From assembly GCA_046563655.1 (NCBI GenBank), contig CM102284.1, positions 5,518,001 through 5,582,000 of the forward strand: 64,000 bases of DNA, in the 5' to 3' direction. Source of the stretch: Yuukianura sp. NJ FZ-2021 (lineage: Eukaryota). Positions 596 to 25,833 of this stretch are shown in pieces (positions within the stretch are counted from its first letter, which is position 1; each line of letters begins with the position of its first letter). The translations under genes and the position numbers were made by a program. The notes under the pieces are model-generated. The model worked only from the letters and a program-made list of their open reading frames with translations, was not told where the DNA came from and searched no databases.

Positions 596-2575
596 TTAGT
601 AGAAGCGGAACTTGCAGTAATCTGGACGGCGTGTGTAGAACCAGTAGCGAATGGAACTCCATGGCCAGAGGGACGTAATTGCGCCGACGCAGTTGGTAAA
701 CCAGGTTCCATTTTTGCTGGTGTTCCAAATAGTTCGCTGGAACTGCAATTCAAGGTCACTCAGGAAGTCATCTTCCGCGGATTCTTCGACCTCAATGACC
801 TTGGTGCATCGTTTTGTCATTTCCTGGATGAGTTTGACAATGGCATGGACTTGGCACTCCAGAATGAACACTGATGAGTTGTGTAGGATTGTCTAGAAAC
901 AGAAAAGACAAAGTCAAGGACCACTCATTGTCCATTGAAACAGGTCAAAGGTCAATGACCTCATTTGTAAAAATAAACTTTACAGTATGTGGCCCAAGGA
1001 GGAAAAACAAGTTTGGAGTGACGGAAGTCGTGAGGCCAAAGTAAGTACGAACTCGAACGCGCGAATTTTTCCAACGACACAACAAATCCTGTGAGTACTT
1101 GTCAATAATTTTCATTGGGCCAAAGAATTCTTGACGGTTGTCTTCTGGAGCAAGAATGAGAACCTAAAAGGTAATCAGTTGCTAAATAAGTTAATCGATT
1201 AAGTAACTAACTTTATGCTGAATTTGAGTCTACTTACGTCCAACTGTGTAGTTGCATGTTCTCCACCAGATGTAGTAACTGCGCAATCGGAGATTAGTGT
1301 GATCGGTTCACAGTGGAGCATCACTTTTCCCTTTTCCAAAGCGTTGTAAAAATCGTTTGAATGCAAAATCGGTTTGAAACCAAACGGGTACTTCGGTTCC
1401 AAAAGCCAGCGGAAGCGATGGTAGCTCCCAATCTTAGCACCAATGTACTTCTGAGACAAGTAGTGAGCTAATAGCATATAAACAATTGTTAGCTACCGCT
1501 GATTTCACTTTGTTAGCCTATCTTGTTAGGTTAGGTTTTTACCGATTTGGTTAAAGAGAGAATTCTTGAGGAAGATTGGATAGTAGAAGATTTCAGTCAC
1601 ACCGAAGAGGAACCAACGCAAGATGACCAGCAGGATGTGAACTTTCTCCAAAGTCTTTTTGAAGAACATTGGAAGTTGGAACTGAAGTCTTGGTAGAATC
1701 CAAGATGGACTCTGTTGGTAGTAGTGCAGCATTTTGCATTTCGATTCAATTGCTGGAATCAACTGAACTGCTGCCAGTCCACTTCCAACGACGCCAACGA
1801 CCTTGTCCTCCAAATCAATACTGTCGTCCCATGCACGCGTATGCAAAATCGGTCCTTTAAAACTGCTGAATTCGTCCGGAACGAGAGCTTCTCGGTGAGA
1901 ACCAGTTGCGCAAATCCTAAAAAATCCAAAAACAGTTCCAAATTAACCTAAATTTCAAGAATACGACTCTTGGTTAAAGCTCACTGAACTTACGCCATGT
2001 CAAACGTTACGTATTTCATCATCGAAATTTTCTTGTTGAGTATGATGGCATTCCATTTCTTGGCTTTGGCGTCCCAGGTCAACGACTTGACCTGAGAATT
2101 GAACTTGATTGCAGAGTAGATTCCATATTTGTGAGCAATTGCTTGGAGGTATGTAGACATTTCCTTCTGGCTGGCATAATTTTCTGGCCAATCTGAAAAT
2201 ACGACATTAGACATGCGTTAGTTAGGCTAAACTTCGGTTAGGAACTGATGCGCATGCGTACCTGGCTTCAGTTCAAATGAGTACGACGACAATTGGGCCA
2301 AAGACTCCGAACAATGCCCTGGATACTTGCACAACCAACTGCCACCAACTTCTTCGTTTTCGTCAAAAATTGTGACAGAAGTGATTCCGAGTTCCGTTTT
2401 CAGTCGTATTGCTGCAAGAAGACCCGATATGCTAAGGAAGTATAAGAGAAACGATCAAGTTTTTGAAATTTTGGAATTTTTCTAGGAAATTTTGAAAATC
2501 TTACCCAGCACCAACGATACAGATTGATGGCGTGACTGTATTTCTGTGTGGAGAGTATTCATTTTCGTGGTCCAT
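596..2575 (-). CDS. Divergent Baeyer-Villiger monooxygenase-like flavoprotein (BVMO-1), 7 exons, probably catalytically altered
   Basis: Spliced ORF MDHENEY..ICIVGAG|ISG; BVMO fingerprint FKGPILHTRAWD; second Rossmann VVGSGLAA; C-terminal TWFTNCVGAITSLWP. Intron positions match the two paralogs. Confidence 0.85.
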
Positions 2576-2979
2576 TTTCAAAATTTGAAATTGTCCAAAA
2601 AGTGGTGCTTTTAGAAGCAAAATGGCTGCACTGTTGCTGCGAACTGCTGCTGCCTTTTCTCCTCCGAATGGTTTGAAAATGGCGACTCAACTTTGCAGCC
2701 TTGCCAGCTACTACTGCATTGTTCAACCTTTGTTCAACATTTTCATCAAAAGTACTGAAAAATTGGTTCCTATAGTGACAGTTATTATTTAATTTTATTT
2801 CTGAAGACTAAAAATCAAGAAATTGACTTGGAATAGTTGGACTTCGGTTTTTTGAGCATAGTGAACGCCCCAAAAAATTTCAAACAATCGGTAAATCGCA
2901 GTTATCCGTGTACTACATAGTTTAGAAATCATGTTGGGTGTTTGATTCATTTAAAATCTTTACGCTAGTAAAATTTAAA

Positions 2980-5126
2980 TTATTTTGAGCCTTTCGTATA
3001 AAATTTGAAATTGTCAAAATTTGGAGATCTGGTTTCCCACCAGTACTTGATGCAATTGTAGGGCCAGAGGACAGTAATGATTCCTTGAGCATTGGCATAC
3101 CACGATCCGCAATTTTCATTACCCCAAACAGTCGCCTTCATTCCGGTATTAACCGAATCATGAAAAGCATCTTCCGCTGATGCCTTGAGTTCAATAACTT
3201 TAGCATCTCTCTTCAACATTTCCTTAATCAGTTCAATAGCACAGTTCATCTGACATTCAATCATAAACACAACTGAATTATGTCCAAGTCCCTGTTTAAA
3301 AAAAGTCAAGCACTTCAGTTTCTAAACTTTTCAAATTCCAGATTTCCAAATTTTGATCTTACGGTGTTTGGTCCAAGAAGAATAAATTGATTTGGTGCAA
3401 GCGTGCCCATGATGCCATAGTACGATTTTGGATAAGAACTTGTCCATTCGTCCATAATGTTGACCTTGTTTTTGCCAATAATGACCAGTGGTGCGAAGAA
3501 ATTTTGAACTTGGTAACCAGTTGCTAAGACCAAGAGCTATGAGCACAAAAAATTCAAAATTTTGAAGCACTGTGCCCAAATTTCATGAATTTTTGAAACT
3601 TACGTCCAACTTTTGCTCTCCTTTGTCAGTCACAATTGAATTGTCCTTGACTTTAACAATTGGTTCAAGATGCAGGTTCACATTAGGCTGTTTCATCGCA
3701 GGATAATATTCGTTCGAAACGACAATTCTCTTGCAACCGACTTTGTATTTTGGAGTGAGTTCTTCCCGCAATTTTTCATTTTCTGGAACAGATTTCTTCA
3801 AAAATCGTAGTGCCGTTCTTGTTGCTAAAATTCACAAAAACAGAAATAAGACTTTGAACTTTTCTTGAAAATTTAGATTTTTTTCACTTACAAAATCGAT
3901 TGAAGCGACTTCCATGAAGAAACGAGTTATGGAAAAGGTCACGGAACAGAAAAATGAAACAGCGGAAGAAGAACATCAGAAATGGAACGTAGGCAAATAG
4001 AAATTTGAGCCACGATGGAATTGCAAATTGAATTCGCGGCATGACCCAAGCGGGTTTCCTTTGATAACAGTGCAGTTCCTTGGCTGTAGCTGCCAATTTC
4101 GGAATGACCTGAATAGCCGATGAGCCGCTACCGATGACCCCTACGACCTTGTCATCCCATTCTACTGATTGGTCCCACGCTGCAGTATGAACTACTTGGC
4201 CCTTGAAGGACTCAAACTCCTTCGGAACATTCGGAAGGCGAAGGGCTCCAGGTGAATTGATTCTAAAAAACGAAAGTTGAATATTAAACACCATCGAAGA
4301 ATTTGAGGAAAAACCATACGCAGATATTTAACCAAGTGCGTTAGGTTTTTTAATTTCAAAGCGAATTAGAAAGTTGCGAACTTTCTTTTGGTAGAAATGC
4401 AATCTGGATTTTACAATTTTTTAATCTAATTGTATTAAAAATTTTGAATTTTTGTTTGAATCTTACGTAACATCGAATAGCCGCTCTTCGGTAGTTTTTT
4501 CCACTTTGTTGAAGATGACGACCCTCCATTTGGAAATTTTTTCGTCCCAGGTCAAGCTCTTGACCTGAGAATTGAACTCAATTTTTCTGTAGAGGTCGTA
4601 CTTTTTTGCCACGTTTTGCAAATAGGCCCAGATTTCTTTTTGCGGAGAGTACAGATACGACCAGTCTAAATGCAAAATTTTAAAAGTGAGGTGGGTCAAG
4701 CGTCAATTTTTTACTAAAAGTTGAAGGTTTGCCTTGAATTTAGTTTAATTGGACTTACTTGGATTTGGTTCAAATGAATACGAGTAGAGATGGGACTGCA
4801 CGTCACACGCACAGCCTGGATAAGTATTCACAAGCCACGTCCCACCTACGTCAGCATTTTCGTCAAAAATTGTGAAAGTTTCCAAATTCAATTTCCTCCG
4901 CAGCTGAATTCCAGCTAGCAGTCCGGAAAATCTGAAAACCAAAATCATAATTATTTAAAAAATCAAACGTAAAATGCTTTCATTTCCAAATTCTTTGCAC
5001 AAAAATTGTCCCGTTATGCTAGTAAATACTCGAATCTAATCTGAAGCACCCCATACGTCTTTCTTACCCAGCTCCAACAATGCAAATTTCCGGAGTTGTC
5101 CCATTGGAATATGTTGGTTTGCCCAT
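2980..5126 (-). CDS. Baeyer-Villiger monooxygenase (BVMO-2), 7 exons
   Basis: [35 protein letters not shown] fingerprint, [28 protein letters not shown] introns; approximate exons 5126-5068, 4930-4759, 4665-4467, 4262-3891, 3825-3604, 3536-3363, 3291-2980. Confidence 0.93.
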
Positions 5127-5809
5127 AGTAGTTCCAGTTATGCCAATTTTCGTTAACTGCTACTATGGTTAGTTTGCTACTGACATATAATAGGCTGGTT
5201 CGTGTCTGTTTCTAAAGTACTTTTAAAGTGTTTTAGATAAAAAATTTTAGCTCGTGTTGCCTTAAGCTTCAATGTCACTGCAATTTGGCATGTGACTATA
5301 CGGCGAATGGCACTGTTAAGGCTTGACGTTATTTATTTGCAGACTTGCGCTCGTGTGGTGGCCACAGTTTAATCCAAAGTTCACTTCAACGTGGGTGCAT
5401 TACGTAGGTGTCACGTAGTGTACGAACCATGAGTGAAGTTTCTAAACAATTTCAAACTAAATTCTGATAATCTTAAAAGATTAATTGAATTCCATGGGGG
5501 TGTGAATGTGATGGGAACTGAAAAAATTGGATGTGAACTTTCATTAGGTTGGGATATAAAGTTAGGATTTGTGCACCCTCATCGTATACTTACATTTCTG
5601 TAGAAATTGGTCATAAACATTACGTAGGGTCAATTTTTTCTAATATATAAAAAGTACAAAATAAGTCATAGTGATGCTGAACTTTTTGCTGTTTCCCTCG
5701 ATAAGCTTTCTGGAAGTGGAATTAACGTATCCAAACCAGTTTTTGGCATTTTATTTTATTTCTCTATTCCCGAACTAATGAATTAGTAAAATCTGTATAA
5801 AATTTTAGT

Positions 5810-7975
5810 CTAAAATTTTGAGCCTTTTGTATAAAATTGGAAATTGTCAAAATTTGGAGATCTGGTTTCCCACCAGTACTTGATGCAATTGTAGGGCCAG
5901 AGGGCAGTAATGATTCCTTGAGCATTGGCATACCAAGATCCGCAACTTTCATTACCCCAAACAGTCGCCTTCATTCCGGTGTTAACCGAATCATAAAACG
6001 CATCTTCCGCTGAAGTCTTGAGTTCAACAACCTTAGCATCTCTCCTCAACATTTCCTTAATCAGTTCACTTGTATAGTTCATCTGACATTCAATCATAAA
6101 CACAGCTGAATTGTGTCCAAGTCCCTGTTATGAAAAGCCAAAAGGTTAAGTTTCCAAACTTTCCTAATTTTGCAAGTTTAAGTTTTTAGAATTTTGAGCT
6201 TACGGTATTTGGCCCAAGAAGAATAAATTGATTTGGCGCAAGTGTGCCCATGATGCCATAGTACGATTTTGGATAAGAACTTGTCCATTCGTCCATAATA
6301 TTCACCTTGTTTTTGCCAATAATAACCAGTGGTTTGAAGAAATTTTGAACTTGGTAACCAGTAGCTAGGACCAAGAGCTATGAACGAAAAAAAATTCAAA
6401 ATTTTCACTTCTTGTTTCGGAATTTCACAAATTTTGGAAACTTACGTCTAACTTTTGTTCTCCTTTCTCAGTCACAATTGAATTGTCCTTGACTTTAACA
6501 ATTGGTTCAAGATGGAGGTGCACATTAGGCTGTTTCATCGCAGGATAATATTCGTTCGAAACGACAATTCTCTTGCATCCGACTTTATATTTTGGAGTGA
6601 GTTCTTCCCGCAATTTTTCATTTTCTGGAACAGATTTCTTCAAAAATCGTAGTCCATTTCTTGTTGCTAAAATTCATAGAAAAAAATAAAATAAGACCGT
6701 TTTTTTGTTTTTCCGAAAATTTAGAATTTTGCGACTTACCAATTCGGCTGAGGAGAGTCCCATTTAGAAACGCGCTATGGATGAGTTCATGGGACAGAAA
6801 AATGAAACAGCGGAAGATGAGCATCAGAAATGGAACGTAGGCAAACAGGAATTTCAGCCAAGATGGAATTGGAAATTGAATTTGCGGCATGACCCAAGCG
6901 GGTTTCCTTTGATAACAGTGCAGTTCCCTGGCTGTAGCTGCCAGTTTCGGAATGACCTGGATAGCCGATGACCCGCTACCGATGACCCCTACGACCTTGT
7001 CCTCCCATTCTACTGATTGGTCCCACGCTGCAGTATGAACTACTTGTCCCTTGAAGGACTCAAACTCCTTCGGAACATTTGGAAGGCGAAGGGCTCCCGG
7101 TGAATTGATACTAAAAAGTAAAAATTTGAAAAATTATATATTAAAAACCATCGAAAAATTTGAGCAAAAACGCAACGCTGATATTAAACCTAGGACGGTA
7201 GGTATTTTGATTTCAAAGCGAATTAGAAAGTTGCGAACTTTCTTTTAGTAGAAATGCAATCTGGATTTTGAAATTAAGTTTGCAATTTTTTTTTGGAATT
7301 TTACATTGAATCTTACACAAGATCAAACAGCCGCTCCTCAGTTGTTTTTTCGACTTTGTTGAATATGACGACCCTCCATTTCGAAATTTGCTCATCCCAG
7401 GTCAAGCTCTTGATTTGCGAATTGAACTCAATCTTCCTGTAGAGGTCGTACTTTTTAGCAACGTTTTGCAAATAGGCCCAGATTTCTTTTTGCGGAGAGT
7501 ATAGATACGACCAGTCTAAATGCAAAAGTTAGGAGTGTCAAAGGTGAGTTTTTTTAGTAAGTTGAAGGTTGGCCTTGAATTTAGTTTAATTGGACTTGCT
7601 TGGATTTGGTTCAAATGAATACGAGTAGAGATGGGATTGGACATCACACGCACAGCCTGGATAAGTATTCACAAGCCACGTCCCACCTACGTCAGCATTT
7701 TCGTCAAAAATTGTGAACGTTTCCAAATTCAATTTCTTGCGCAACTGAATTCCAGCTAGCAGTCCGGAAAATCTGTAAAACAAAATCCCAATCTTCTTAA
7801 AATAAAATTTCGGAAAAATGCTTTCATTTGGATTGGAAATCTTTTGCAAAAAATTTTCGGGTTAGTCTAGTCTAGTAAATATTCGAATCTAATCTGAAGC
7901 AAGCCATATGTCTTACCCAGCGCCAACAACGCAAATTTCCGGAGTTGTCCCATTGGAATATGTTGGTTTGCCCAT
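5810..7975 (-). CDS. Baeyer-Villiger monooxygenase (BVMO-3), recent tandem duplicate of BVMO-2
   Basis: Same motifs and exon structure; near-identical protein to BVMO-2 ([20 protein letters not shown] start). Confidence 0.93.
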
Positions 7976-9944: not shown

Positions 9945-11863
9945 CTACTTTAGTTGGCAAATATCAGGCTGCAAATTTAGGTTTTTCGGCAGGAATTTTC
10001 GACGATGTTTGAAATTATGCAGTATATAGAAGGTAGAGTCAGGTACAGAACTTCTGGTGTGACGGTTAAGGTGGTTTCTGGAGTGGCACCAGCTTCGGTA
10101 AGCTAGGTTGAGCAGAAGAGTGTAGATCAGAACGACAGTTGACCCAGTTGTTTTGCTCTGTTTGCTTGTTGGATCAATTAGTTGTTCAACTCTTGACTTG
10201 GTACCATTCTTGATACAGTACATGCCCTTCTTTACCGGATCTTTCTAGACAGTGAGAGACAGAATCACAAAAGTTAAAAGTTTAGCATTACCATAAGTTC
10301 AACACAACATTAGTTCAACCAATACGAAGAAATCTTACGACTGTCGGTAAATCTCCGTAAGTTTCGATTGCACATATCGATCCATCAACACAGTAGTCTT
10401 TTCCATTTTTATATCCACTGTAGAAGAACACTGTTCCACGAGTTTGGAACTTGGAGCAAGGCACTTTGAAGTCCAGTTGGTACCCATGTGACTTAGTTTT
10501 GTTTGGAACGCAGACATCACAGGGATGTGAAAATTGAATTGAACAGCTTCGATTGGTCAAACTAGTCCCGGGTAAGTGGCGAGGCTTGTCCCACGGAATG
10601 TACACAGGAGGAGTACAGCCACAGTATGGTTCCATTCCAGGAGAACCCGGGTCAGTGATACAGCTTAAGCCCAGCTGAGTCCGACAAAAGAGTCTACGAA
10701 ACAAAGTTGAATCAGAAATTGCAATTTTGAAACCGATATCAAACTCACCGCTGCTCCTCACGTATCGTAGTCACAAATTTTTTAAATCGGGGAGAATATA
10801 GAAGATTTACCCGGGCACGGTCGCTTGAGTAATTCGAAATCAAGTTGAGGTACTTGTTTGTGTAGTAATCCAACTCTGCCTGTCTACGTGTACTTCGATT
10901 GCTTCTTGGTGCTTGAGCAACATCACATGGACCGGATGGTAATGCGTCTCCATTGTCATCGACTAAGCCTCGACGATACAATATTCTAAACTCTGCTTCA
11001 AAGTCCATCATCATTAGTTCCAGTTGCGGCCATGAGCCATTGGGTTTACACGATCCGTATTTGCAAATTAAGGGGATCGCAGTCGTGGTGGTCGGAGTAG
11101 TTGTCGTCGTCGTCGTCGTAGGACGTTTCGTCGTCGTCCTCCTACGTCTTTTCCTTGTGGTCGGAGTAGGTGTCGTAGTCGTTGTCATGTTAGTAGGTGG
11201 TGGAAGTGTCGTCGTCATGTTAGAAGGTGGTGGAGGCGTCGTCATGTTAATAGGTGGTGGAGGCGTTGTCGTCATGTTAGCAGGTGGTGGAGGTGTTGCC
11301 GTCATGTTAGCAGGTGGTGGTGTTGCCGTCGTGTTAGTAGGTGGTGCACGCGGCGTCGTCATGTTAGCAGGTGGTGGAGGTGTTGCCGTCATGTTAGCAG
11401 GTGGTGGAGGTGTTGCCGTCATGTTAGTAGGTGGTGGACGCGTCGTCGTCATGTTAGCAGGTGGTGGTGGAGGTCTCGTAGGACGGCCTTTCTTCTTCTT
11501 ACTCTCAATAAATGGTGGAGCTGTCGTCGGGTTACCAATTTGTCGTTTTACCAAAGATCTCGTCGTCGTCGTCAAACTAGTAGTTGGTGTCGTTACGACC
11601 GTAGTAACAAGCTTAGTTGTTCCCGGCTGCTTAGTAGGTTGAGCACTTGGAAGTGTACTTTACGTCAGCAACACATGGGATACAACATTCAAAAATCAAA
11701 ATTCAACTGGTTTTGTATCGTGGAGTAACAACCGTATATTAGCTGTACAAGTATAAACATACGTCAATCCTTGTCCTTGGATGCCTTCTGGACGATCTCC
11801 TACGAAGATCACAGCCACAAACATCAATGTCAAGGAGGCCAACCTGTCTGGAATACGGTACAT
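9945..11863 (-). CDS. Mucin-like Pro/Thr-rich secreted or membrane protein with Cys-rich C-terminal region, 4 exons
   Basis: Exons 11863-11763 (signal peptide), 11657-10749 (PT repeats), 10693-10339 (Cys-rich), about 10244-9945 (hydrophobic VVLIYTLLLNLAY); splice phases are compatible. Confidence 0.72.
11180..11470 (-). repeat. Coding minisatellite, 27-30 bp unit, about 9-10 copies, encoding PPPP(A/T)NMT(A/T)T
   Basis: Repeated gtcatgttagcaggtggtggaggtgttgcc on the + strand. Confidence 0.9.
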
Positions 11864-12945: not shown

Positions 12946-14336
12946 ATGGCCGAGTACAAGCTGGTTTACTTCAATAGTCGAGGTAACGCCCACATCAAAC
13001 TCAAACTTTTAATTTCCAGGCATTTTGAGATTTCGAAATTTTGAAGTTAGGTTTCGGAAACTTTTACTTTTCTTTTTCAATTTCTGGTGAAAGGTATTGC
13101 AGAGCCGATTCGGTTCATTTTCCATTACGCCGGAGTTGAATTCGAGGATGAACGAATCAACAAAGAGGATTGGCCGAATGTGAAGCCAAGTAAGTCATAT
13201 GACCCCAAGGTCAAGGTCGGTTTTTGTCAAGGTTACCTTTATACTGATGATATTTCCAATCACTTTATGTACAAAAACGCCCTGTTTCATAGCGTCGGCT
13301 TCAGATTTCTTGAAAACAAGACTGAGTCATAGTTCTCTACTTACTGACAATTGAATGTCCGTGACCTTCAAGTTGACCTTTTCGCGCCTGGATTGCTTCA
13401 AAGTGCAGAAGCTATTGATTTTTGCAGCGTGCAAAAAGGCCATCAAATCCCAGAATTGCTTTTCTTTGGAAATTTCTTTGTTCCTTTCAAAATTCAACGA
13501 AAAAGTATTTGTTCCTACTCCGAATCGAGAACAAGCATTTTCAAATTCATTCCCAATTTATTTACTAGTGGTACCAGCTACCAAGTGGAATGAAGTACCC
13601 AATATCCTGTATGTTAAATGTCAATCTATAAAATACTATCGAAAGTGCTTTAAAAAAGTTACTCCCCCACTTTAGTCCCAATTCTGATCATTATGTTCCA
13701 ATTTAAATCAATTAACTTACGAAAGAAACTTTTTACTGATGATTTTTTTGTGTGTAGCTACAAAGTGGGGTCAAGTTCCTCTTCTGAAATTTGGAGACCA
13801 CGAATTGGCCCAGTCATGCGCAATTGCACGGTTCCTGGCTAAGAAATTCAATTTGGTTCCAGAAGATGATTGGGAAGCGGCTCAAGCCGATGAAGTTGTG
13901 GATACAGTCAAAGATGTTACGGCTAAACTTGGGATGGTTTATCGTGAAGAAGATCCAGAAAAGAAGAAAGAAAATTCGACAATTTTCATTGAAACTATTG
14001 CAAATCCAATTTTGGAAAAATTGAATCAACTCAAGGAAGAAAACGGAGGAGACTGGCTCGTTGGCAAAAATGTACTGCCTGTTTTGTTCAATTTCCAAAG
14101 AAATTGTTGGAATGGTGAACTGAAAATTGAAAATTGAAATTTTATAAAACCAATTTTGAAAATTACAGGTGACTTGGGCCGATTTTTATGTCGCTTGCTG
14201 TCTACACTTTTGGAGCGTTCCGACCGAGACTGACGTTTTGGCAGACTTTCCAGCGTTGAAGGCCCATCAAGAGGCTGTTTTTGGCATTCCACAGATCAAG
14301 GCCTGGATTGAAAAGCGACCTGACACTGTTATGTAA
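12946..14336 (+). CDS. Glutathione S-transferase, sigma class, 4 coding exons
   Basis: MAEYKLVYFNSRG|IAEPIRFIFHYAGVEFEDERI, KWGQVPLL, QSCAIARFLA, TWADF, IKAWIEKRP. Exons 12946-12982, 13094-13189, 13759-14071, 14169-14336. Confidence 0.93.
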
Positions 14337-15979: not shown

Positions 15980-17824
15980 TCATGGTTTCTTTTCAGGCTT
16001 AGGCGTGGGCTGTCGTCCTTTGGCTGATTCCTCGACATTCACAACTGCAGCATTAAGATCCGTGTAACTGCGAATGACACCGATAGGAGCAAAGTCGCTC
16101 TTGAACACATCGTCTTCCTGTTTCTGTTGTTTTTCTTTCAGCTCCTTGAAGTCCCTGGCAACCTTCTGTTCGTACAGGGATCTTGGGGGGTCAAGGTTCA
16201 TCAACTCCTCTTCAGTAGTCTCACCACAGTTGTTGATGATGATCTTCCTCACGGGCTTCCCATGTTCCGAAATCCCCGCCAATCTGACCATCTTTTCAGA
16301 AAAAAAGGTTTTCCCAAAAAAACGAAATTGAATTTGGGAAATTTTTGAAACGCTTACGTTTTTCAGATAGTTCATTCCCAGGATGACTTTGCCAAAAGCG
16401 ACTTGCCTTTTGTCCATTGGTGGTAGTGGGACAGCTGAAATCCGAAATTCGGAGTTGGCCGTTTTGTCTCCATAGTTGACCATGGACAGAATTCCTTCCG
16501 CGTCATGTTTCAGTCTTCAGAGCAAAACAAAATTCAGAAAAACTGAAAATTATGTGAATTTTTTTTTCTCTTTTGGTGAAAACTTTTCTCTTACTTGAAG
16601 TTTTCATTTGGAAAAGTTTCGCCGTAGATTGACGTCAACCCTTCACCCCCCTGCCACAGAATTCCATTCAAAATTAGTCCAATTTCCAAACAACGGTAAC
16701 TTTTCCCACGATCTCCAGTGCATAAACTTCGGAAATTTTCGGCTGTCATTGGAACAAGGTCAGCTCGCAGTTCAAACGCTACCCGCCCGACCGCTTTTCC
16801 AACAATTTCAAAATCCAGGTACACAATCGGCTTGGGAATTTCTTTAGCACGTTGCCAAGCAACCTCTTCGAACGGTGCGCACAAGCGAGTCATCCAAAAT
16901 GGCGGAAATTTGGAAGCCAACAGACGATACTTGGACATCTCCTGGTACCATTTGTGGTAAAACTCTCGTGTGGGAACTTGTGCTTTCTAAGAAAGTAAAA
17001 ATTTCCTTTCTAATCAAGTTTGACTTTGACCTTTGACCTCTTGAGGTCAATAAACTTACAATTTCCTTGAGTCGATTATAGATTTCACAATTTTCAAGCC
17101 CAATTTGGAGAGCACAGACCATGCGTTGTTTCCAATTTCGATTTGAAGTGTATTTCAGTAGAGGATTTTCACCAGGAAGCTGAAAAAGTGAAATTTAGTT
17201 TTAGAATGACCTTTCACTTTTTGAAAATGTTTGAAATTTCTTACATCTCGAGTGTTAATTTTGTGAATATCAGTGAGAAGGAAGGCATTGTCACGATCAA
17301 TTTTGGATTGCAGAAGTTGAGCACGATTGAAACGATTGTTTCGCTTGTTGATGATGAAATCGGTGCCCACTTTCGGTTCTCTGATTTCTGGAACGGCAGC
17401 ATCCAACTCCTCGATTCGCCGTTTGTGACGAAGATAGTAAATTTGTCTAAAAATGAGATTTCAAAACTGAGTTTCAAAATTTCATGCTTAGTTTTGATAA
17501 GATGAACAAAAATGTTTCACCTCCAATAGGAATCAGGTTCATGGGAAATTAGGCGTCGTAATGATTTTTTGTAATCCTTTAGTTTCTAAAATTTAGAAAA
17601 ACGAAGGTTGTTATACAAAACTTGGAACGGTCGGACGTGAATTTCCTAGATAGAGATTAATATTCCAGGTTTTTTAAACAAAAATAAAAAAGCTCAGTTT
17701 TTAAAGCATAAAGCTATGATGCTTTGCATTTTCAAAATTTCAAAATACTTACAGTTTTAGCTTCATCGTCCCCGCAATACTGTCCAAATTTCCCTTGGTT
17801 GAACCTGGAGTATTCTGCCTCCAT
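15980..17824 (-). CDS. CFAP97/KIAA1430-like N-terminal domain fused to a degenerate cyclophilin domain
   Basis: N-terminal W.Q.YY.RHKRRI..IDRDNAFLL..I..I and R..LQIGLEN.EIYNRL patterns; C-terminal VYLDFEI..GRVAFELRADLVPMTAENFRSLCTG, SIYGETFPNENF.LKH, VAFGKV. Multi-exon; 5' exon borders approximate. Confidence 0.78.
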
Positions 17825-18385: not shown

Positions 18386-19233
18386 ATGGCCTCCCCATAC
18401 AAATTGACCTACTTCAACTATCGCGGCAAGGGTAAAGCATCACCTCGAATTCAGTGACCTTGGCTTTCAAAATTCTCGTTTCCGTTTTGATTTTGAAAAT
18501 TGTGTGATTTTGTAAATTTCAGCTGAGCCGATTCGAATGATCTTCAAAGTGGCGGAAGTTGATTTTGAGGATCACCGACTCGAATGGAACGATGACTGGA
18601 CGAATGAACACAAACCAAAGTAATACTTGAATCTGAATTAAACTACTAAAATATTATTATAATATATTATTAATAATATATTTTTAAAGGTACCCCTGGG
18701 GCACTCTGCCTGTTCTTCACGTGAGTGACCAAATCCTCTGTCACTCCGTTCCCATCGCTCGCTACCTTGCGCGCAAGTTCAACCTGGTTGGATCTTCGGA
18801 CTTTGAAGCTGCTCGATGCGATGAGGTAAAGCGTTCAAAAACTTCCTCAATTTTTTCAAAAAATCAGGAAAATTTTGAATTACAGTTGGTGGAAGCCATG
18901 AAGGACTTGCATGATGAAGCCATCAAAGTCTTTATTGAGCGAGATGAAGAGAAGAAGTTGTCCTTGATCACGACCTTTCTCAGCGTCACTGCACCAGGCT
19001 ACTTGAGTCGTTTTGAAAAAATGTTTCAAGCCAATGAGGGGCCATGGTTGGTTGGATCCAAGTTGACCTGGGCTGACCTCTACGTCGCTTATGGCTTTGA
19101 CGATTTGGAAAGTACCCTTGGAGCACCAGTTCTCCTTACGCCATATCCAGGACTCCAGGAACTCAAGACTTCAGTCTACAACGTTCCGCAAATCAAGGAA
19201 TGGATCGAAACTCGTCCCTCCGGAAGCTTCTAA
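18386..19233 (+). CDS. Glutathione S-transferase, sigma class
   Basis: MASPYKLTYFNYRGK|AEPIRMIF, PWGTLPVL, HSVPIARYLA, LTWADL, IKEWIETRP; short GT-AG introns. Confidence 0.92.
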
Positions 19234-19921: not shown

Positions 19922-22900
19922 ATGCCGCGTGACAGCTCTCCTCCGAGGTCACCGGGGTCAGGATCATCCCAAATCCATGGTGAGGTCAACCTATCCTTCA
20001 TTCAAGAAGAAGACGAACCATGTGACAGTAGTTGTCCAAAAAATAACAACAACGAAAACACAACTCCGACGAAACAACTTCCCATTTCCCCGTTGACGCC
20101 GACGGGTAACGCACCGCCATTTCCAGAGTGTCGTCGTCGGAGTAGCGTCGACAAGGCACAGGCCCTGCGTCAAGCCACTTCACGAACATTTCGACGCATG
20201 TCAAACGCCTTGACTTCAGTTTTGCCACACAGTGACATTAGGCTTGTGGGGATGACGGAGGACGTAAGTTGTCAATTTTCTGTCCTCCCCAACTCGTTTA
20301 ACATTTAATTTAATTTTTGACTTTTCATTTTTTTTTAAATTAATTCGATTGTGTCGAGTTTTTAGCAATGCCGCTCCTTTTCGTATGAGAATTGTGCAGT
20401 TCTATTGAAGGAATGTTGAAGTCCTTTAATTTCCTTTTTGTCTTTGTTAATTATATTTTTGCTAAACAGACAAACACTCCTCCGGCTCTACTAAATTAAC
20501 AAATTTTCCATTGAACTGCACTTTTACAAGGAGAGCTCCTTTGGGAGCTGCGTAACTAAACAATTATTGAGTTGTCAAAATTTCAAAATGTCATCAACTT
20601 TGTGATTTTGACAAAAAGAAAATACGAAATGTAAAATCATAATACAGGCAAAAACAAAACTGAATCCGAGAATCCGAGTATAATTCAAAATTTCTCAAAA
20701 AATGCTTCTTTTTTTCAATTTTATTTTTATTTTGAAGGATTTGTTGCATCAAATTTTTGAAGCGTCTGACTACTACAGAATTGGACGATTGAATCAGGAC
20801 AAATGGATTGAATATTTGAAAATGCGACTCAACCAATACTGCTCCAGTTGCCCACATTGCCCACAAAAGTGAGTTTTAGTAATTTAACAGGTTGTTTAGT
20901 AAACATGTAACCATTTCCTATTTGGAAATTTTGAAAAAGTGCAAGACCCGATTTAAATGCATTTCTTAAGAATCTATGAAGTGTCACGCCTAGGTAAAAC
21001 GACACTAGATTTCTAGGATTCGCCAGGTTTAGCATGTGCAACCACTGTACACTGCATGAACCATGCCTAAAAAGCTTTCTTGAAGTTTGCATCTTGTTGA
21101 AAACAGCAGGTACTTGGTCACGTATAGCTTTTAAAAACCTAGCCCATTTTTCAAATTGGAAAAAGTCGTTAATTTTAGACAATGTAGTTGTCACTTTTGT
21201 CCATGCGAAGTCGTGATTGATGAGTTTGAAAGAAAAGGACATTGATAATTAATTGGACAAACAAAGTTGGAGATTGCTGGATGATTTGGTGTTTCCAATT
21301 GTTTAAATCAAACATCTAATATATTTTTTACATCATTTGTTTCGTGTTGTACAGCTTTGGTATGGATAAGGAAGAAGACCGAACTGAAATGATTGTTGGA
21401 GGCTTGGTCTGGAGAAACCTTGAAATATGTTATTATAGCATGCTATGATTGTTGAATGCTGAGGTCAACTTTTTTCTTGGAAGATGATGTGCATGCTATG
21501 CTGTTGCATTAAGTTTTAGTTACTAACATAACATTTCCTCCAACATAGTCAATTTCATACGTAACTTGAAATTTTGTCCACAAAATTCTGTCTGTTTTTG
21601 TGTCAAAATTTTGAATTTTTGGTATTTGAAACAGTGAGGAACGGAGGCTCGACTTTTTGGAAATTGTTGAAAGTGTTGCGTATGCTGTAGCTGGAGATGA
21701 AGATCTTACATTTGAAGCATTTTACAAAATCTTCAAAACCAAAAACGTAAGATTCTAAATTCAAATTTTCTTCTCATTTGATTTGTTTGACAAATTTTGG
21801 AATTCCTGGTACTATTTTTAGGTACTGAACAAACTATATCGTATCATTGACCGAGACCTTGATGGAATCGTGACCACTGAACAGGTGATGGAGTTTATTT
21901 CTCAATTGAGTGGGGCTAGGTACGTGCGATGTCAATTCTTTGAAATCAGTCATGCAAAAAATCCGGATTTGCAAAATTTTAAACAAAAAAAAATCTTTGT
22001 CTTTTGGTTCATCAGAAGTGGTAGTCGCCTTACTAAGGATAACATTGCCTATCTGGAAAAACTATTTCGACAATACGTTGGAGATGAGAGGGAAATCAAA
22101 AAATGCGATTTTAGCAAAATCATTCAAACCAAAAACGTAAATTCCACAAGCACGAAGTTAGCATTTTGTTGATGACTTTATCTGATTTTCTCCCATTTTC
22201 AAAATTTCAGCAATTTTTTACTGACCGAGTTTTTGACATTTTCGATAACGATGCCAATGGGACGATTTCTCTTCAAGAATTTCTGGAAGCCATGCATCGC
22301 TTTACCGGTGAAAACCCCGAAGACAAAATTCGGTTTTTGTTCACAGTCTACGACATTGATGGGGACGGCGAAATTCAAGAAGCAGAACTGGAACAAGTCA
22401 TGCGCGCTTGCATGGAAGAAAATGGAATGAAGTTCAGCGACGAACAAATTCGTACGTTTTGAAAAATTTGCACTTGACTACGTTTTTAGTGGAAGAGAAT
22501 TTCAAAATTTTGAATCATACGAATCGGGTTTGTTTTTGTGGCAGACGAACTAACGACAGCGCTGTTTGAAGACGCAGATACTGAAGGACGCGGTGCGTTA
22601 ACCTATGAGTCGCTGAAGGCTCAGTTGCAAAAACACTGCGGACTTCTTGAAAATCTGTCCCTTAGGTATGTCCTCCAGAAATTTTTGAACTTTTTCGAAA
22701 TTCTTGAAATTGCCTAACTTTTGAAAATTATTAGCATCGAACGGTGGCTAGTTCCTGTCAAGCCGGTTCAGGTTCAACGGCAACCTTCACTGATGACAAA
22801 AATTCGATCGCTGATTCCACACCAATTCAGTTCAAAATATTTAAAAAACAATTACGTTTTTGTACTTTGGCTCGTGGGCTTCTTGTTCGTAAATTTTTGC

Positions 22901-25833
22901 CTATTTTCTTCGCGGGCCATTTTCTTCTTCAGTACTCATCGATGTGCAACTATTTGGATAATTTTAGCGAAGGCTACAGGTTAGAAAATTCCAAATTTCA
23001 AAAAAAACAGAAATCTAAATGATATAGCTTCAAATTTTTCTTGACTTTTGTACATAGGCCAAGCTCTAAACTTTAATTGTACTTACATTTTGGTGATGAT
23101 GCTCAAACAAAGCTTAACATTTCTACGAGCACGCGGTGCCTCAACGTATCTTCCGATTGATCAACATTTATATCTGCACAAACTTGCTGGATACTTCATC
23201 GTAGGACTTGGATTCGTCCATACCGTTGCACATCTTCTGAACATTCGTAAGCCAAAATTGTTGACAAGATTTGGAGAAAAAACACTTTTTTAAACTCATG
23301 TTTAATTTGAATCTTGTTTTCAGATTTTGGCTTTGTAGAAAATCCAACCCTAGCTTTAGATTGCAGCGAAATTGAACGAAGGAATTGGACATACATAGAG
23401 TACTTATTTGTTCCTGGAGCGACTCAAGCCTTCGGATTGGTTCCTGGATATGCATTTAACACCGGAGTTTTACTTTCTGCGATTTTGTTCATCATGTTCG
23501 TCTGTTCCCTACCTTTCGTTCGACGGAGTGGATATTTTCAAGTAAGCTTCAGAAAAATTCAGAAACATAATATTTGTTGGATTTTTCTTCATCTTCAGGT
23601 TTTTTACTGGACACATCTTCTATACGTTTTGTTTTGGCCGATTTTGATTATTCACACAAAACACTTTTGGATTTGGTTCCTTGTTCCCGGGATCATTTTC
23701 GTCATTGAACAAGTAGGAACTGATTCAGGGCTACTTTGTGCATGCACTGATTACTTTCTTCTTTTTTTTTTGTCCCAGGCTGTCCGAATCTATCGCTGGA
23801 GAATTGGAAGCGGGAAGACGTATATTTCTTCCGGAATTTTGCTTCCGTCCAGAGTAACTCACTTGATAATCCGAAGACCGCCAAACTTTCATTTCCGTCC
23901 AGGCGATTACGTCTTTGTTAAAATTCCAGCCATTGCTTCATACGAGTGGCATCCCTTCACTATCAGCAGTTCACCGGAACAGGACGGTTTGTGGAAATGT
24001 GAATTGTGGAAAAATGAAAATACTTCCAGGATTTAAAAATTTCGTTTTTTAATTTCATAAGATGCAATTTGGCTTCATATTCGAGCGGTGGGAGAGTGGA
24101 CAAATCGATTGTACGAATATTTTGAGCAAGAACAAACCAATTTGAATCCAGCCATTTGGGACTTTCGCTCTCAGACGGACGCTTTCACCAAAGGAGTCAA
24201 ATACAGAAAGTTAGAACATTCATTTTTCAAAAAACTAAACCGAAACAATTTTTTCTAGCGCAAACAAAACAGAAGAACTTTTTCAAATTTTAGAAGAGAA
24301 AGTTTTCGAAAATATTTGGATAATCCACTGACGTCCAATCCAGAGACACGGCGACCATTGAAATCAGTTGCAGATTCGCTCACTTCTTGTACTCCGGAGA
24401 GTAACCACTCTTCATCTGCAAATATTTCTAGAGATAGTAAGACTCGAACACCAAATTTTAAAAAAGAGAAAGTTTTCTTTAAAAAAAAATTTGTTTGTAA
24501 AACAGATGCAACGATCACTAGTTCTGAAGACGTGCTTAATGTAAACGAAACAGGTCAAAGGCCACTCAAACTACCTCTGTCCAAAATGAACTCAATGCCG
24601 AACATGTCTGAGGAGAAAGGAGACTCTGAGATTTCCGGCATCAGGTACTTTTGAAAGTCAAAATTTTTGAGATTTTGAAATTAGTTTTAAACACTTTTCT
24701 TTTTAGACTCAAAATTTTACCAAGGTCGGAATCAGTTGAGACTGACAAAATCTCTGCGTCGTCTCGTCGTAGTTTTGATTCAGCAAACCAAAGTCGTCGC
24801 TACCTTCGCTACAAACCGGCCATAATCACGTTTAAAACTCCACAAGATGACAAAGATGTCGAAAAAAGTCTAATTCAAAGTGCTCGAAGAAAATCTAAAG
24901 ATGTGGAAAGTTTTGTCCAAGAAGTTCGAAGAGCAGGTCAAGGTCAAGAGGTCGCCTGCTACGAACTAGGAACAACTCGAGTCTCACAGGAACAGTTACC
25001 AACTGGGAAAGCTCTAGAGGTCAGAGTTCAAATTCACTTTTTTGCTACATCCAAAAAGAAAGTGGTAACATTTTTTCAAAAACTGAATTTTTTTTGTAAC
25101 AGATTTTCATCGACGGGCCTCTGGGTGCTCCTTCCAGTCACATTTTCAGAGCGGAACATGCTGTACTCATCGCCACTGGAATCGGAGTTACTCCCTTTGC
25201 CTCCATTTTGCAGTCGATCATGCGCAGATACTGGGCTTCCAGAAATATTTGTCCAAACTGTAACTACACTTGGTGTAGCGAACTCCCTCAGTCTGTTCTT
25301 AATCTAAAAAAGGTGAAAAATCTTGAACTTTTTCAAAAAGAAGGTTTCTGAATTTTTTTTTAAACAGGTTGACTTCTTCTGGATCAATCGAGACCAACGT
25401 TCGTTCGAATGGTTTGTTCATCTCCTTTCTCAATTGGAAATTGAACAAGCAGAACTGGGGGGTGCAATGGAACGATTTTTAGACATGCACATGTACATCA
25501 CTTCAGCTCTGCAGAAAACAGACATGAAGGCAGTTGGACTCCAATTGGCACTGGATCTGCTTCATGAAAAAGTTAGTTTCTTTGTTTGAAAAGTTGTAGA
25601 AAGTTAAGTTTTTGTTAATTACTGGTGTGTTTTAGGACAAACGAGATTTAATTACTGGTTTAAAAACACGTACCAATGCGGGACGTCCCAACTGGAACAA
25701 AATTTTCAAACAACTTCAAGATCAAAGGAAAGGGAAAGTGACGGTGTTCTACTGCGGACCACCAGCATTAGCACGCACACTCAAACTCAAATGTGACGAA
25801 TATGGATTCGCCTTTCGAAAAGAAGTTTTCTAA
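19922..25833 (+). CDS. Nox5: NADPH oxidase 5 (EF-hand, calcium-activated Nox)
   Basis: EF-hands (DNDANGTISLQEF, DIDGDGEIQEAEL), heme His-bearing TM segments (HKLAG..HTVAH, YWTHLL..IIH), FAD motif HPFTISS, NADPH motifs GIGVTPF, VDFFWINRDQRSFEWF, VFYCGP, terminal FRKEVF*. Confidence 0.95.

What the first reader, a model, noticed from the sequence alone, without database searches (positions are those of the whole stretch)
596..2575. BVMO-1 is an intact ORF with coordinated loss of catalytic and NADPH-binding residues: candidate pseudoenzyme
Seen relative to its neighbours: GCKRI becomes GFKPI (catalytic Arg, PAMO R337 equivalent, to Pro); QRKP becomes QQSP (NADPH 2'-phosphate Arg lost); [12 protein letters not shown] becomes WLCKYPGHCSE (1-aa deletion, Asp to Glu); LATGY becomes LAPED. 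Splice sites and frame appear intact, with no stops found. Inference: maintained as a non-oxygenating flavoprotein, a regulator, or an enzyme with new chemistry beside its active paralogs.
Basis: partly seen in the sequence, partly recalled or inferred. Interest (0 to 1): 0.75.

Follow-up and report, generated by a model that had tools for sequence, protein, structure and literature searches.

The report
Intact BVMO paralogue missing catalytic residues
One of three neighbouring flavin monooxygenase genes in an animal genome is fully intact yet has lost the residues its family needs to bind NADPH and insert oxygen, so it is probably kept for some other job.

Summary
Window 596-2575 (minus strand) is a 7-exon, 506-codon gene with no internal stop and six GT-AG introns. 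All six intron positions and phases match its tandem paralogues BVMO-2 and BVMO-3.

In 160 full-length relatives, 42 alignment columns are at least 95% conserved. BVMO-1 differs at 13 of them; BVMO-2 and BVMO-3 differ at none. All five core residues are changed: the equivalents of PAMO D66, R217 and R337, plus the T and G of the ATG motif. Only 2 of the 160 relatives deviate at even one of these.

It is not a drifted pseudogene:
- Synonymous sites against BVMO-2 are saturated while pN is 0.39, and codon-model omega is about 0.17.
- All four BVMO-1-specific indels are in frame.
- In neutral simulations, 0 of 1500 ORFs stayed open at the required divergence.

BVMO-1 evolves about three times faster than BVMO-2, and its replacements look nearly random.

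No orthologue was found. Expression, FAD binding and activity are untested. Best reading: a selectively retained paralogue disabled for canonical NADPH-driven Baeyer-Villiger catalysis. Whether it is a pseudoenzyme or has new chemistry stays open.

The parts
596..2575 (-). BVMO-1 gene, ATG to TAA. Seven exons: 2575-2505, 2431-2262, 2192-1994, 1916-1543, 1467-1238, 1163-984, 892-596. 506 aa.
   Evidence: 1521 nt, frame 0, one terminal stop, six GT-AG introns of 69-91 nt, phases identical to BVMO-2/3. Searches agree.
2422..2512 (-). FAD Rossmann motif GAGISG (G22-G27), split by intron 1. Retained.
   Evidence: G22, G24 and G27 are kept at columns 93-94% conserved in 160 relatives.
2305..2346 (-). 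[quoted passage not shown] It reads GGSWLCKYPGHCSE: the spacer is one residue short, N58C, and Asp to Glu at E66 (2305-2307).
   Evidence: the deletion is unique to BVMO-1 among 18 aligned rows. for the alignment to solved BVMOs. Motif definition from PMC3427485.
1826..1861 (-). BVMO fingerprint FxGxxxHxxxW[P/D], here FKGPILHTRAWD (166-177). Retained.
   Evidence: F166, G168, H172 and W176 are kept at columns 98-99% conserved.
1769..1786 (-). Second (NADPH) Rossmann motif GSGLAA (191-196). The glycines are kept; S195A falls at a 97% conserved Ser.
1706..1717 (-). QQSP in place of QRKP. Q215 takes the place of the Arg equivalent to PAMO R217.
   Evidence: PAMO 157-226 against BVMO-2 exon-4 residues 8-77, spans of equal length. 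Arg is present in 160 of 160 relatives and in 41 of 41 top fragment hits.
1367..1381 (-). GFKPI in place of GCKRI. P304 takes the place of the catalytic Arg (PAMO R337 / STMO R342). C302F. The Lys (PAMO K336 equivalent) is kept.
   Evidence: alignment. Arg is present in 159 of 160 relatives; the one exception, P0063, also has Pro.
1140..1154 (-). LAPED in place of LATG[F/Y]. The ATG motif is lost (T354P, G355E, F/Y356D).
   Evidence: T and G are each present in 160 of 160 relatives.
881..892 (-). TILH in place of GLGH at the start of exon 7, just after the retained GP(N/H)T.
   Evidence: H412 and S414 are kept.
2980..5126 (-). BVMO-2, the canonical tandem paralogue. 7 exons, 502 aa, all family motifs present.
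   Evidence: Keeps 42 of 42 columns that are at least 95% conserved. Exon 4 matches 40 distinct solved class B monooxygenase sequences, best E about 1e-11.
5810..7975 (-). BVMO-3, a recent duplicate of BVMO-2. 503 aa, 91.8% identical to BVMO-2. Intron 2 has a GC donor.
   Evidence: dS 0.22, dN/dS 0.17.

Best explanation
BVMO-1 is an old tandem duplicate of a canonical type I Baeyer-Villiger monooxygenase gene. It has been kept as an open, spliceable gene by purifying selection, but it can no longer carry out the family's NADPH-driven oxygen insertion.

Shown:
- The gene is intact.
- It keeps the FAD Rossmann motif, the GG-W/YPG core, the BVMO fingerprint and the glycines of the second Rossmann motif.
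- It has replaced the Arg that locks the adenine and 2'-phosphate of NADPH (Q215).
- It has replaced both members of the Asp-Arg active-site pair (E66, P304).
- It has replaced the invariant T-G of the ATG motif (P354, E355) and shortened the active-site motif by one residue.

Inferred:
- The protein still folds as a two-Rossmann-domain flavoprotein and probably still binds FAD.
- It reduces flavin with NADPH poorly or not at all, and it cannot stabilise the peroxyflavin or Criegee intermediates.
- It therefore survives for a non-oxygenating role, such as binding, scaffolding or regulation beside BVMO-2/3, or for a much altered activity.
- Its constraint is weaker than that on its paralogues. 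That explains the threefold faster, nearly random-looking replacement pattern.
For: Intactness: 506 codons, no stop, 6 of 6 GT-AG introns at the paralogues' positions.

Age and constraint:
- BVMO-1 against BVMO-2 is 43.0% identical over 498 aa.
- NG86 pS is 0.757 (saturated), pN is 0.387 and dN is 0.54.
- The GY+F3X4 codon model gives omega 0.17. Of 3.83 substitutions per codon on the tree, 3.59 lie on the branch separating BVMO-1 from BVMO-2/3.
- If synonymous change is split evenly and 76% of protein change lies on the BVMO-1 side (branch 1.22 against 0.39), omega on that side is about 0.26. This is my arithmetic and is rough, because dS is saturated.

Frame kept under selection:
- All 4 internal indels unique to BVMO-1 among 18 aligned rows are multiples of three.
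- Substitution-only neutral simulations left the ORF stop-free as follows (1500 runs from each of the two starting CDS): 109 and 142 of 1500 at 5% amino-acid divergence; 16 and 19 at 10%; 0 and 0 at 31%.
- 31% is the level needed to change 13 of 42 invariant columns by drift.

Residual discrimination: BVMO-1-specific changes hit 35 of 116 sites in columns at least 70% conserved, against 57 of 97 in columns under 50% conserved (Fisher p 3e-5).

Composition: GC at fourfold sites is 0.42, like BVMO-2/3 (0.44, 0.45), against 0.33 in its own introns (p 0.024).

Loss of function-defining residues: with the roles taken from passages of PMC2956058 (R217A/L raise Km for NADPH about 1000-fold; 'catalytically crucial R337'), PMC3427485 (D66A inactive) and PMC4966971.

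Exon 4 of BVMO-1 scores 15.4 bits on Pfam FMO-like, below the 22-bit cut-off. Exon 4 of BVMO-2 scores 29.3 bits.
Against: - No orthologue of BVMO-1 was found. Selection is therefore inferred only from comparison with paralogues over a saturated distance, and it averages the whole history. A recent loss of constraint would be invisible: 7-9% of neutral runs were still open at 5% amino-acid divergence.
- BVMO-1-specific replacements are about as radical as random single-step mutations. Mean BLOSUM62 by conservation class is -0.78, 0.24, -0.77 and -0.05, against nulls of -0.94, -0.51, -0.47 and -0.31. BVMO-2-specific replacements are conservative, 0.0 to 2.0.
- The acceleration is gene-wide and includes the FAD-domain N-terminal part, where 32-40 unique changes stand against 6-10 in BVMO-2. 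FAD binding itself is not assured.
- Expression, protein, cofactor content and activity are all untested.
- Class B monooxygenase activity is said not to depend on a fixed 'golden set' of residues (highlight of PMC10682829). That statement is about FMOs.
Confidence: 0.5

Rival explanations
1. BVMO-1 is still an active flavoenzyme with changed cofactor use or chemistry. It could be NADH-dependent or use another reductant. It could be an uncoupled NAD(P)H oxidase making H2O2, or an oxidase or dehydrogenase acting on a new substrate. On this reading the active-site changes are adaptive.
For: - A natural Gln in place of the 2'-phosphate Arg exists in an active class B monooxygenase. SMFMO has Gln193/His194 where mFMO has Arg234/Thr235, and it uses NADH and NADPH (passages of PMC3829993).
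- PAMO R217A/L keep near-normal kcat at high cofactor concentration (table in PMC2956058).
- One of 160 relatives, P0063, also has Pro at the catalytic-Arg position while keeping the other four core residues.
- BVMO-1 keeps both Rossmann glycine motifs, the fingerprint and the Lys before the lost Arg.
- It has 16 His against 8 in each paralogue. New His residues sit in or beside conserved motifs: H63, H154, H240, H307.
- Omega well below 1.
Against: - Five of five core positions are changed at once, which none of the 160 relatives approaches.
- The ATG motif T-G, invariant in 160 of 160, is replaced by Pro-Glu, with an Asp after it.
- No acidic residue typical of NADH-specific Rossmann folds appears after the second beta strand, which reads HYYQQSP (the rule is recalled).
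- The replacement pattern looks relaxed rather than directed.
Confidence: 0.27
2. BVMO-1 is a non-functional relic. It diverged under weak selection, has recently lost all constraint or is not expressed, and simply has not yet acquired a disabling mutation.
For: - It evolves about three times faster than its paralogue. Tajima counts with five outgroups are 105/36, 101/51, 103/47, 94/40 and 92/32. The branch is 1.22 against 0.43.
- Lineage-specific change at columns at least 90% conserved is 18 of 61, against 1 of 44 for BVMO-2.
- Replacements are as radical as random ones.
- No orthologue was found in any search.
- 7-9% of neutral simulations were still open at 5% amino-acid divergence.
Against: - No stop, no frameshift, and 12 of 12 splice dinucleotides intact.
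- Four of four lineage-specific indels are in frame.
- Omega is about 0.17-0.26 over a branch with saturated dS.
- Fourfold-site GC is like the functional paralogues and above intron GC.
- Drift cannot account for the 13 of 42 invariant-column changes without stops: 0 of 3000 simulations in total.
Confidence: 0.18
3. The apparent losses are an artefact of a wrong gene model, a wrong alignment or an assembly error.
For: The gene model was built by hand from translations, without transcript support.
Against: - All four motifs lie well inside exons, in ungapped collinear alignment with BVMO-2/3 and 15 relatives.
- Independent tblastn recovers the same exons.
- The changes are spread over five exons.
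Confidence: 0.02

Closest known systems
Type I Baeyer-Villiger monooxygenases with solved structures (PAMO, CHMO, steroid monooxygenase, OTEMO)
   Same: BVMO-1 is homologous through BVMO-2. BVMO-2 exon 4 matches 40 distinct solved class B monooxygenase sequences, best E about 1e-11. BVMO-1 shares the N-terminal GxGxxG, the FxGxxxHxxxWD fingerprint and the second GxGxxA motif.
   Different: It lacks the Arg of PAMO R217 and the Asp/Arg pair D66/R337, and it breaks the [A/G]GxWxxxx[F/Y]P[G/M]xxxD motif and the ATG motif. Sequence identity to these bacterial enzymes is low, and only exon-level alignments were made.
The 'ktnD-like / CzcO-like' BVMO clade of sciarid flies and springtails (named proteins from Bradysia coprophila, B. 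odoriphaga, Pseudolycoriella hygida, Orchesella, Folsomia candida) and its fungal relatives
   Same: These are the nearest relatives. BVMO-1/2/3 fall inside this clade (support 100/99), and BVMO-1 is sister to BVMO-2+3 (95/75). They have the same length, about 500 aa, and a collinear alignment.
   Different: BVMO-1 is only 36-42% identical to them, while BVMO-2 is 45-55% identical. All of them keep the five core residues. None of these proteins has a tested function that I saw.
Engineered PAMO mutants R217A/L, D66A and R337A/K
   Same: BVMO-1 carries natural replacements at all three positions.
- R217A/L raise Km for NADPH by three orders of magnitude (passages of PMC2956058).
- D66A is inactive because flavin reduction slows (passage of PMC3427485 citing Orru 2011).
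- That R337 mutants form peroxyflavin but do not oxygenate substrate is recalled. The primary papers were not read, and Orru 2011 is not held.
   Different: The mutants are single changes in an otherwise optimal enzyme. BVMO-1 combines them with 10 or more other changes at invariant positions. Its D66 equivalent is Glu, not Ala.
SMFMO and other NADH-accepting 'type II' FMOs
   Same: They have a natural Gln at the position of the 2'-phosphate Arg (PMC3829993).
   Different: They belong to a different subfamily of about 360 aa, with no BVMO fingerprint and no Asp-Arg pair. They are shown to be active; BVMO-1 is not.
Pseudoenzymes in general (catalytically dead paralogues kept by selection)
   Same: The pattern is the same: a homologue of an active family, catalytic residues lost, and an intact gene with omega below 1.
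   Different: No BVMO example turned up. A full-text search for 'pseudoenzyme' together with 'Baeyer-Villiger monooxygenase' found 0 papers. For BVMO-1, expression and lack of activity are not shown.

Membership tests
Type I BVMO (class B flavoprotein monooxygenase) | N-terminal FAD Rossmann motif GxGxxG | tested here: met
   GAGISG, residues 22-27.
Type I BVMO (class B flavoprotein monooxygenase) | Fingerprint FxGxxxHxxxW[P/D] (Fraaije 2002, as quoted in PMC3427485) | tested here: met
   FKGPILHTRAWD, residues 166-177.
Type I BVMO (class B flavoprotein monooxygenase) | Second Rossmann motif GxGxx[G/A/S] for NADPH | tested here: met
   GSGLAA, residues 191-196. The 97% conserved Ser inside it is Ala.
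Type I BVMO (class B flavoprotein monooxygenase) | Motif [A/G]GxWxxxx[F/Y]P[G/M]xxxD with the fully conserved Asp (PAMO D66) (PMC3427485) | tested here: not met
   It reads GGSW-LCK-YPG-HCS-E: three spacer residues instead of four, ending in Glu. BVMO-2/3 fit the motif. Asp is present in 159 of 160 relatives; the other has a gap.
Type I BVMO (class B flavoprotein monooxygenase) | Catalytic Arg (PAMO R337) | tested here: not met
   P304. Arg is present in 159 of 160 relatives.
Type I BVMO (class B flavoprotein monooxygenase) | Arg that binds the adenine and 2'-phosphate of NADPH (PAMO R217) | tested here: not met
   Q215. Arg is present in 160 of 160 relatives and in 41 of 41 fragment hits.
Type I BVMO (class B flavoprotein monooxygenase) | ATG motif after the conserved Asp (D-x4-ATG[F/Y]); the name and role of the motif are recalled (Vallon 2000) | tested here: not met
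   It reads LAPED. T and G are each present in 160 of 160 relatives. D348 upstream is kept.
Type I BVMO (class B flavoprotein monooxygenase) | Common descent with, and the fold of, known BVMOs | tested here: inconclusive
   Descent is clear: 43% identity to canonical BVMO-2, six shared introns, and a position inside the clade.
Type I BVMO (class B flavoprotein monooxygenase) | NADPH- and O2-dependent oxygenation of ketones or heteroatoms | not testable with these tools
   This needs purified protein.
Pseudoenzyme | Loss of residues essential for the parent family's catalysis | tested here: met
   Five of 5 core positions and 13 of 42 columns at least 95% conserved are changed.
Pseudoenzyme | Maintained by purifying selection | tested here: inconclusive
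   For: omega about 0.17, in-frame indels, and an intact ORF against 0 of 3000 neutral runs. Against: no orthologues and a random-like replacement pattern.
Pseudoenzyme | Expressed as a stable protein that lacks the parent activity | not testable with these tools
   No transcript, proteome or assay data are available here.
Pseudogene (unprocessed duplicate) | Disabling lesions (stop, frameshift, lost splice site) or omega near 1 | tested here: not met
   There are none of these lesions. Omega is about 0.17-0.26.

The most novel reading that the evidence does not exclude
BVMO-1 is the first natural Baeyer-Villiger-monooxygenase-derived pseudoenzyme. On this reading it is an FAD-binding but non-oxygenating paralogue, kept by selection next to two active copies in an animal genome. 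It would act as a partner, sensor or regulator of BVMO-2/3, or as a binder of their substrate. It would show that the D66/R337 pair, so far described as universally conserved, can be dispensed with in a retained family member.
Probability: 0.35. Interest if true: 0.65.

Novelty: new variant of a known kind. Interest (0 to 1): 0.45.

Why it matters
BVMOs are studied mainly as biocatalysts, and their natural roles are mostly unknown. In animals they are rare and patchily distributed (passages of PMC4498894). The literature describes the Asp-Arg active-site pair as fully conserved (PMC3427485).

A family member that has lost this pair, together with the NADPH-locking Arg and the ATG motif, yet stays open under purifying selection, would be one of two things. 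It could be a first pseudoenzyme of this class. Or it could be a natural experiment in what the scaffold can do without canonical catalysis. Either would be directly testable by expression and flavin/NAD(P)H assays.

If it instead proves to be an unexpressed relic, it is an ordinary decaying duplicate.

Tried and rejected
The gene models were then built from numeric coordinates read off.

2. Orthologue hunt for the dN/dS test. All three searches below used BVMO-1 exon 4 (124 aa) as the query.
- The search for homologous proteins, longer lengths: 3 distant hits among 185 candidates.
- The search for homologous proteins, near lengths: 0 hits among 7 candidates.
- Exhaustive HMMER over 1.84 billion cluster representatives: 3102 hits, best only 46% identical, none carrying BVMO-1's variants.
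- So no orthologue-based dN/dS was possible.
- An orthologue hidden inside a 50% cluster, or in a genome absent from these libraries, is not excluded.

The origins of the unnamed jgi, lgn and ena proteins stay unknown.

4. Structure prediction, overlay on PAMO/CHMO, and a complex prediction with BVMO-2/3 were not run. The fold, FAD pocket and NADPH pocket of BVMO-1 therefore stay unchecked.

5. Pairwise NG86 dN/dS of BVMO-1 against BVMO-2 is undefined because pS is 0.757, which is saturated. It was replaced by a codon-model estimate, which is itself rough at this distance.

6. GC3 was tried as a sign of codon bias (0.516 against intron 0.329). It shrank to a modest effect at fourfold sites (0.42 against 0.33, p 0.024), so it counts as weak support only.

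7. The idea that the loss is confined to the NADPH domain was rejected. The acceleration is seen in all five segments and is strongest in the N-terminal FAD part.

8. Orru et al. 2011, the primary source for the D66/R337 mutants, is not held.

9. A literature search for arthropod BVMOs asked for at least 3 of 6 terms. It found 55 papers and listed 12. None of the 12 listed contains 'Baeyer-Villiger'.

10. The species of the window was not determined.
Full report
**What is there.** The first 8 kb of the window hold three tandem genes on the minus strand. I read them from three-frame translations and assembled them by coordinate.
- BVMO-1: exons 2575-2505, 2431-2262, 2192-1994, 1916-1543, 1467-1238, 1163-984 and 892-596. 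That is 506 codons plus TAA, with no internal stop and six GT-AG introns of 69-91 nt.
- BVMO-2 (2980-5126, 502 aa) and BVMO-3 (5810-7975, 503 aa) have the same six intron positions and phases.
- tblastn finds no further copy in the 64 kb.
- The neighbours are ordinary animal genes: two GSTs, a cyclophilin, an EF-hand NADPH oxidase and an A2M/TEP gene.
- The window is therefore animal nuclear DNA. I did not determine the species.

**The observation.**
- I checked the residue equivalences against solved structures through BVMO-2, because the tools take only unspliced translations.
- Exon 4 residues 8-77 match PAMO 157-226, spans of equal length. This puts the Arg of QRKP on PAMO R217.
- 'vgckriv' aligns with 'IGAKRIV' of steroid monooxygenase, and the same stretch matches PAMO 318-377.
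- 'ypgcacd' aligns with 'YPGALSD' of CHMO-like structures and with PAMO 26-77.

The roles of these residues come from passages I read.
[quoted passage not shown] R217A/L raise Km for NADPH by three orders of magnitude. R337 is 'catalytically crucial' (PMC2956058).
- Asp66 and Arg337 are described as the only fully conserved active-site residues. D66A is inactive. The motif [A/G]GxWxxxx[F/Y]P[G/M]xxxD typifies BVMOs (PMC3427485).
- The Asp-Arg pair stabilises the peroxyflavin and guides cofactor and substrate (PMC4966971).

**Is it more than chance?** I aligned the three proteins with 160 full-length relatives. These are the 440-560 aa members of the 269 proteins fetched; fragments and longer fusions were left out. 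I counted the 479 columns filled in at least 80% of rows.

| Column conservation | Columns | Kept by BVMO-1 | Kept by BVMO-2 | Kept by BVMO-3 |
|---|---|---|---|---|
| at least 95% | 42 | 29 | 42 | 42 |
| 90-95% | 22 | 16 | 20 | 21 |

- At the five core positions (Asp, the two Arg, and T and G of the ATG motif) BVMO-1 differs at 5 of 5.
- Of the 160 relatives, 158 differ at none and 2 differ at one. P0047 has a gap. P0063 has Pro for the catalytic Arg.
- All 41 best fragment hits that I aligned (P0004-P0044, of the 150 listed) have the R217-equivalent Arg.
- Kept in BVMO-1: GAGISG, GG-W, YPG, the fingerprint FKGPILHTRAWD, the glycines of GSGLAA, Q214, the Lys before the lost Arg, D348, PN..F...GP, H412, S414, E420 and Q422.

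**Relatives and history.** The closest named proteins are annotated BVMO or 'ktnD-like' monooxygenases.
- They come from sciarid flies (Bradysia, Pseudolycoriella) and springtails (Orchesella, Folsomia).
- Next come Mortierellomycota and Mucoromycota fungi, Amoebozoa and actinobacteria.
- BVMO-2 is 45-55% identical to the arthropod proteins and BVMO-1 is 36-42% identical.
- BVMO-1 against BVMO-2 is 43.0% identical. BVMO-2 against BVMO-3 is 91.8% identical.
- I built a careful IQ-TREE tree of the 3 window proteins plus 38 relatives that I picked from the 269.
- The window genes lie in the arthropod clade (support 100/99).
- BVMO-1 is sister to BVMO-2+3 (95/75).
- Its branch is 1.22 substitutions per site, against 0.43 for BVMO-2 from the same node.
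- Tajima counts with five outgroups give 92-105 changes unique to BVMO-1 against 32-51 unique to BVMO-2 (chi-square 16-34).

**Selection or decay?** Several points argue against a drifted pseudogene.
- Synonymous sites between BVMO-1 and BVMO-2 are saturated (pS 0.757) while pN is 0.387.
- A GY+F3X4 model of the three genes gives omega 0.17, with 94% of the tree length on the BVMO-1 branch.
- Splitting that branch by the protein tree puts omega on the BVMO-1 side near 0.26. This is rough, because dS is saturated.
- Four internal indels are unique to BVMO-1 among 18 aligned rows, and all four are in frame.
- In substitution-only neutral simulations, the ORF was stop-free in 7-9% of runs at 5% amino-acid divergence and about 1% at 10%. 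It was stop-free in 0 of 1500 at 31%, from either starting gene.
- 31% is the divergence that drift would need to change 13 of 42 invariant columns.
- The simulations took base frequencies from 1751 intron bases and used kappa 2 and no indels, with 1500 runs from each of two starting genes.
- BVMO-1-specific changes are rarer in conserved columns (35 of 116) than in variable ones (57 of 97; p 3e-5).
- GC at fourfold sites (0.42) resembles the paralogues (0.44, 0.45) rather than BVMO-1's own introns (0.33; p 0.024).

Other points argue for strongly relaxed constraint.
- At columns at least 90% conserved, BVMO-1 changed 18 of 61 sites, against 1 of 44 for BVMO-2 (p 2e-4).
- BVMO-1-specific replacements are about as radical as random single-step mutations, unlike those of BVMO-2.
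- The acceleration affects every segment and is strongest in the N-terminal FAD part.
- No orthologue was found by any of three searches. The constraint estimate therefore averages a long history and cannot speak for the present.

**Mechanism.**

*Shown:* the scaffold motifs are kept, and the NADPH-locking Arg, the Asp-Arg pair and the ATG motif are lost.

*Inferred from the mutant literature:*
- Flavin reduction by NADPH should be very poor.
- The peroxyflavin and Criegee intermediates should lack their stabilising Arg.
- Canonical Baeyer-Villiger oxygenation is therefore not expected.

I judge the most likely state to be a retained paralogue that no longer oxygenates (0.50).
- The main rival is an active enzyme with altered cofactor or chemistry (0.27).
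- That rival has real precedents. SMFMO naturally has Gln at the Arg position and uses NADH (PMC3829993).
- One relative, P0063, has the same Arg-to-Pro change.
- BVMO-1 has twice as many His as its paralogues, some of them in conserved motifs.
- A recent or unexpressed relic remains possible (0.18).
- A gene-model or alignment artefact is unlikely (0.02).

**Comparison and novelty.** BVMO-1 descends from type I BVMOs.
- It fails four of the family's sequence-defining features that I tested, so I do not file it as a functional member.
- A full-text search for 'pseudoenzyme' with 'Baeyer-Villiger monooxygenase' found no paper.
- That search covers open-access papers and bioRxiv only.
- Dead paralogues are common in enzyme families generally, so I rate this a new variant of a known kind.

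**Not done.**
- Structure prediction or complex prediction of the spliced protein, because the tools take unspliced translations only.
- Any check of expression data.
- Orthologue-based dN/dS.
- Identification of the source species.

Noticed in passing
window 7594-7599 (minus strand), intron 2 of BVMO-3: The donor site is GCAAGT where BVMO-2 has GTAAGT. This is a GC-AG intron in an otherwise canonical gene, and the rest of the model is intact.
   Followed up: no
window 2980-7975: BVMO-2 and BVMO-3 are a recent tandem duplicate: 91.8% amino-acid identity, NG86 dS 0.22, dN/dS 0.17. Their 5' flanks are also alike.
   Followed up: partly
window 596-7975, with proteins P0013 and P0154-P0172: The window's BVMOs belong to a clade known only from sciarid flies, springtails and unnamed transcripts. 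That clade is nested among fungal, amoebozoan and actinobacterial enzymes. The patchy animal distribution looks like horizontal transfer. A 2024 PNAS paper (listing and abstract start only) reports intraphylum transfer of terpene synthases involving Sciaridae. None of the 12 papers listed mentions Baeyer-Villiger enzymes.
   Followed up: partly
protein P0063 (498 aa, unnamed source): It is the only one of 160 relatives with Pro at the catalytic-Arg position (GCKP). Its other four core residues are intact. It may be a natural precedent or a sequencing error.
   Followed up: partly
BVMO-1 residues H63, H154, H240, H307 (window exons 2, 4, 5): BVMO-1 has 16 His against 8 in each paralogue. Several of the new ones replace or adjoin conserved residues. 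This is unexplained.
   Followed up: no
window 10745-11659 (minus strand): A 304-aa open frame rich in Pro and Thr, with repeated PPPPANMTT-type units. It looks mucin-like and has no Pfam match.
   Followed up: no
window 58436-58996, 60945-61382, 62622-63011 (minus strand): Three tandem open frames share a Cys-containing pattern (…CFGLP…C…SC…GVM…DN…). The first has no Pfam family; the other two were not scanned.
   Followed up: no
window 13688-14137 and 18688-19233 (plus strand); 15980-16986 (minus strand); 21822-24036 (plus strand); 47450-53540 (plus strand): The neighbouring genes are two GSTs, a cyclophilin, an EF-hand plus FAD_binding_8 NADPH oxidase, and an alpha-2-macroglobulin/TEP gene. 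There is no sign of a biosynthetic cluster around the BVMO array.
   Followed up: partly
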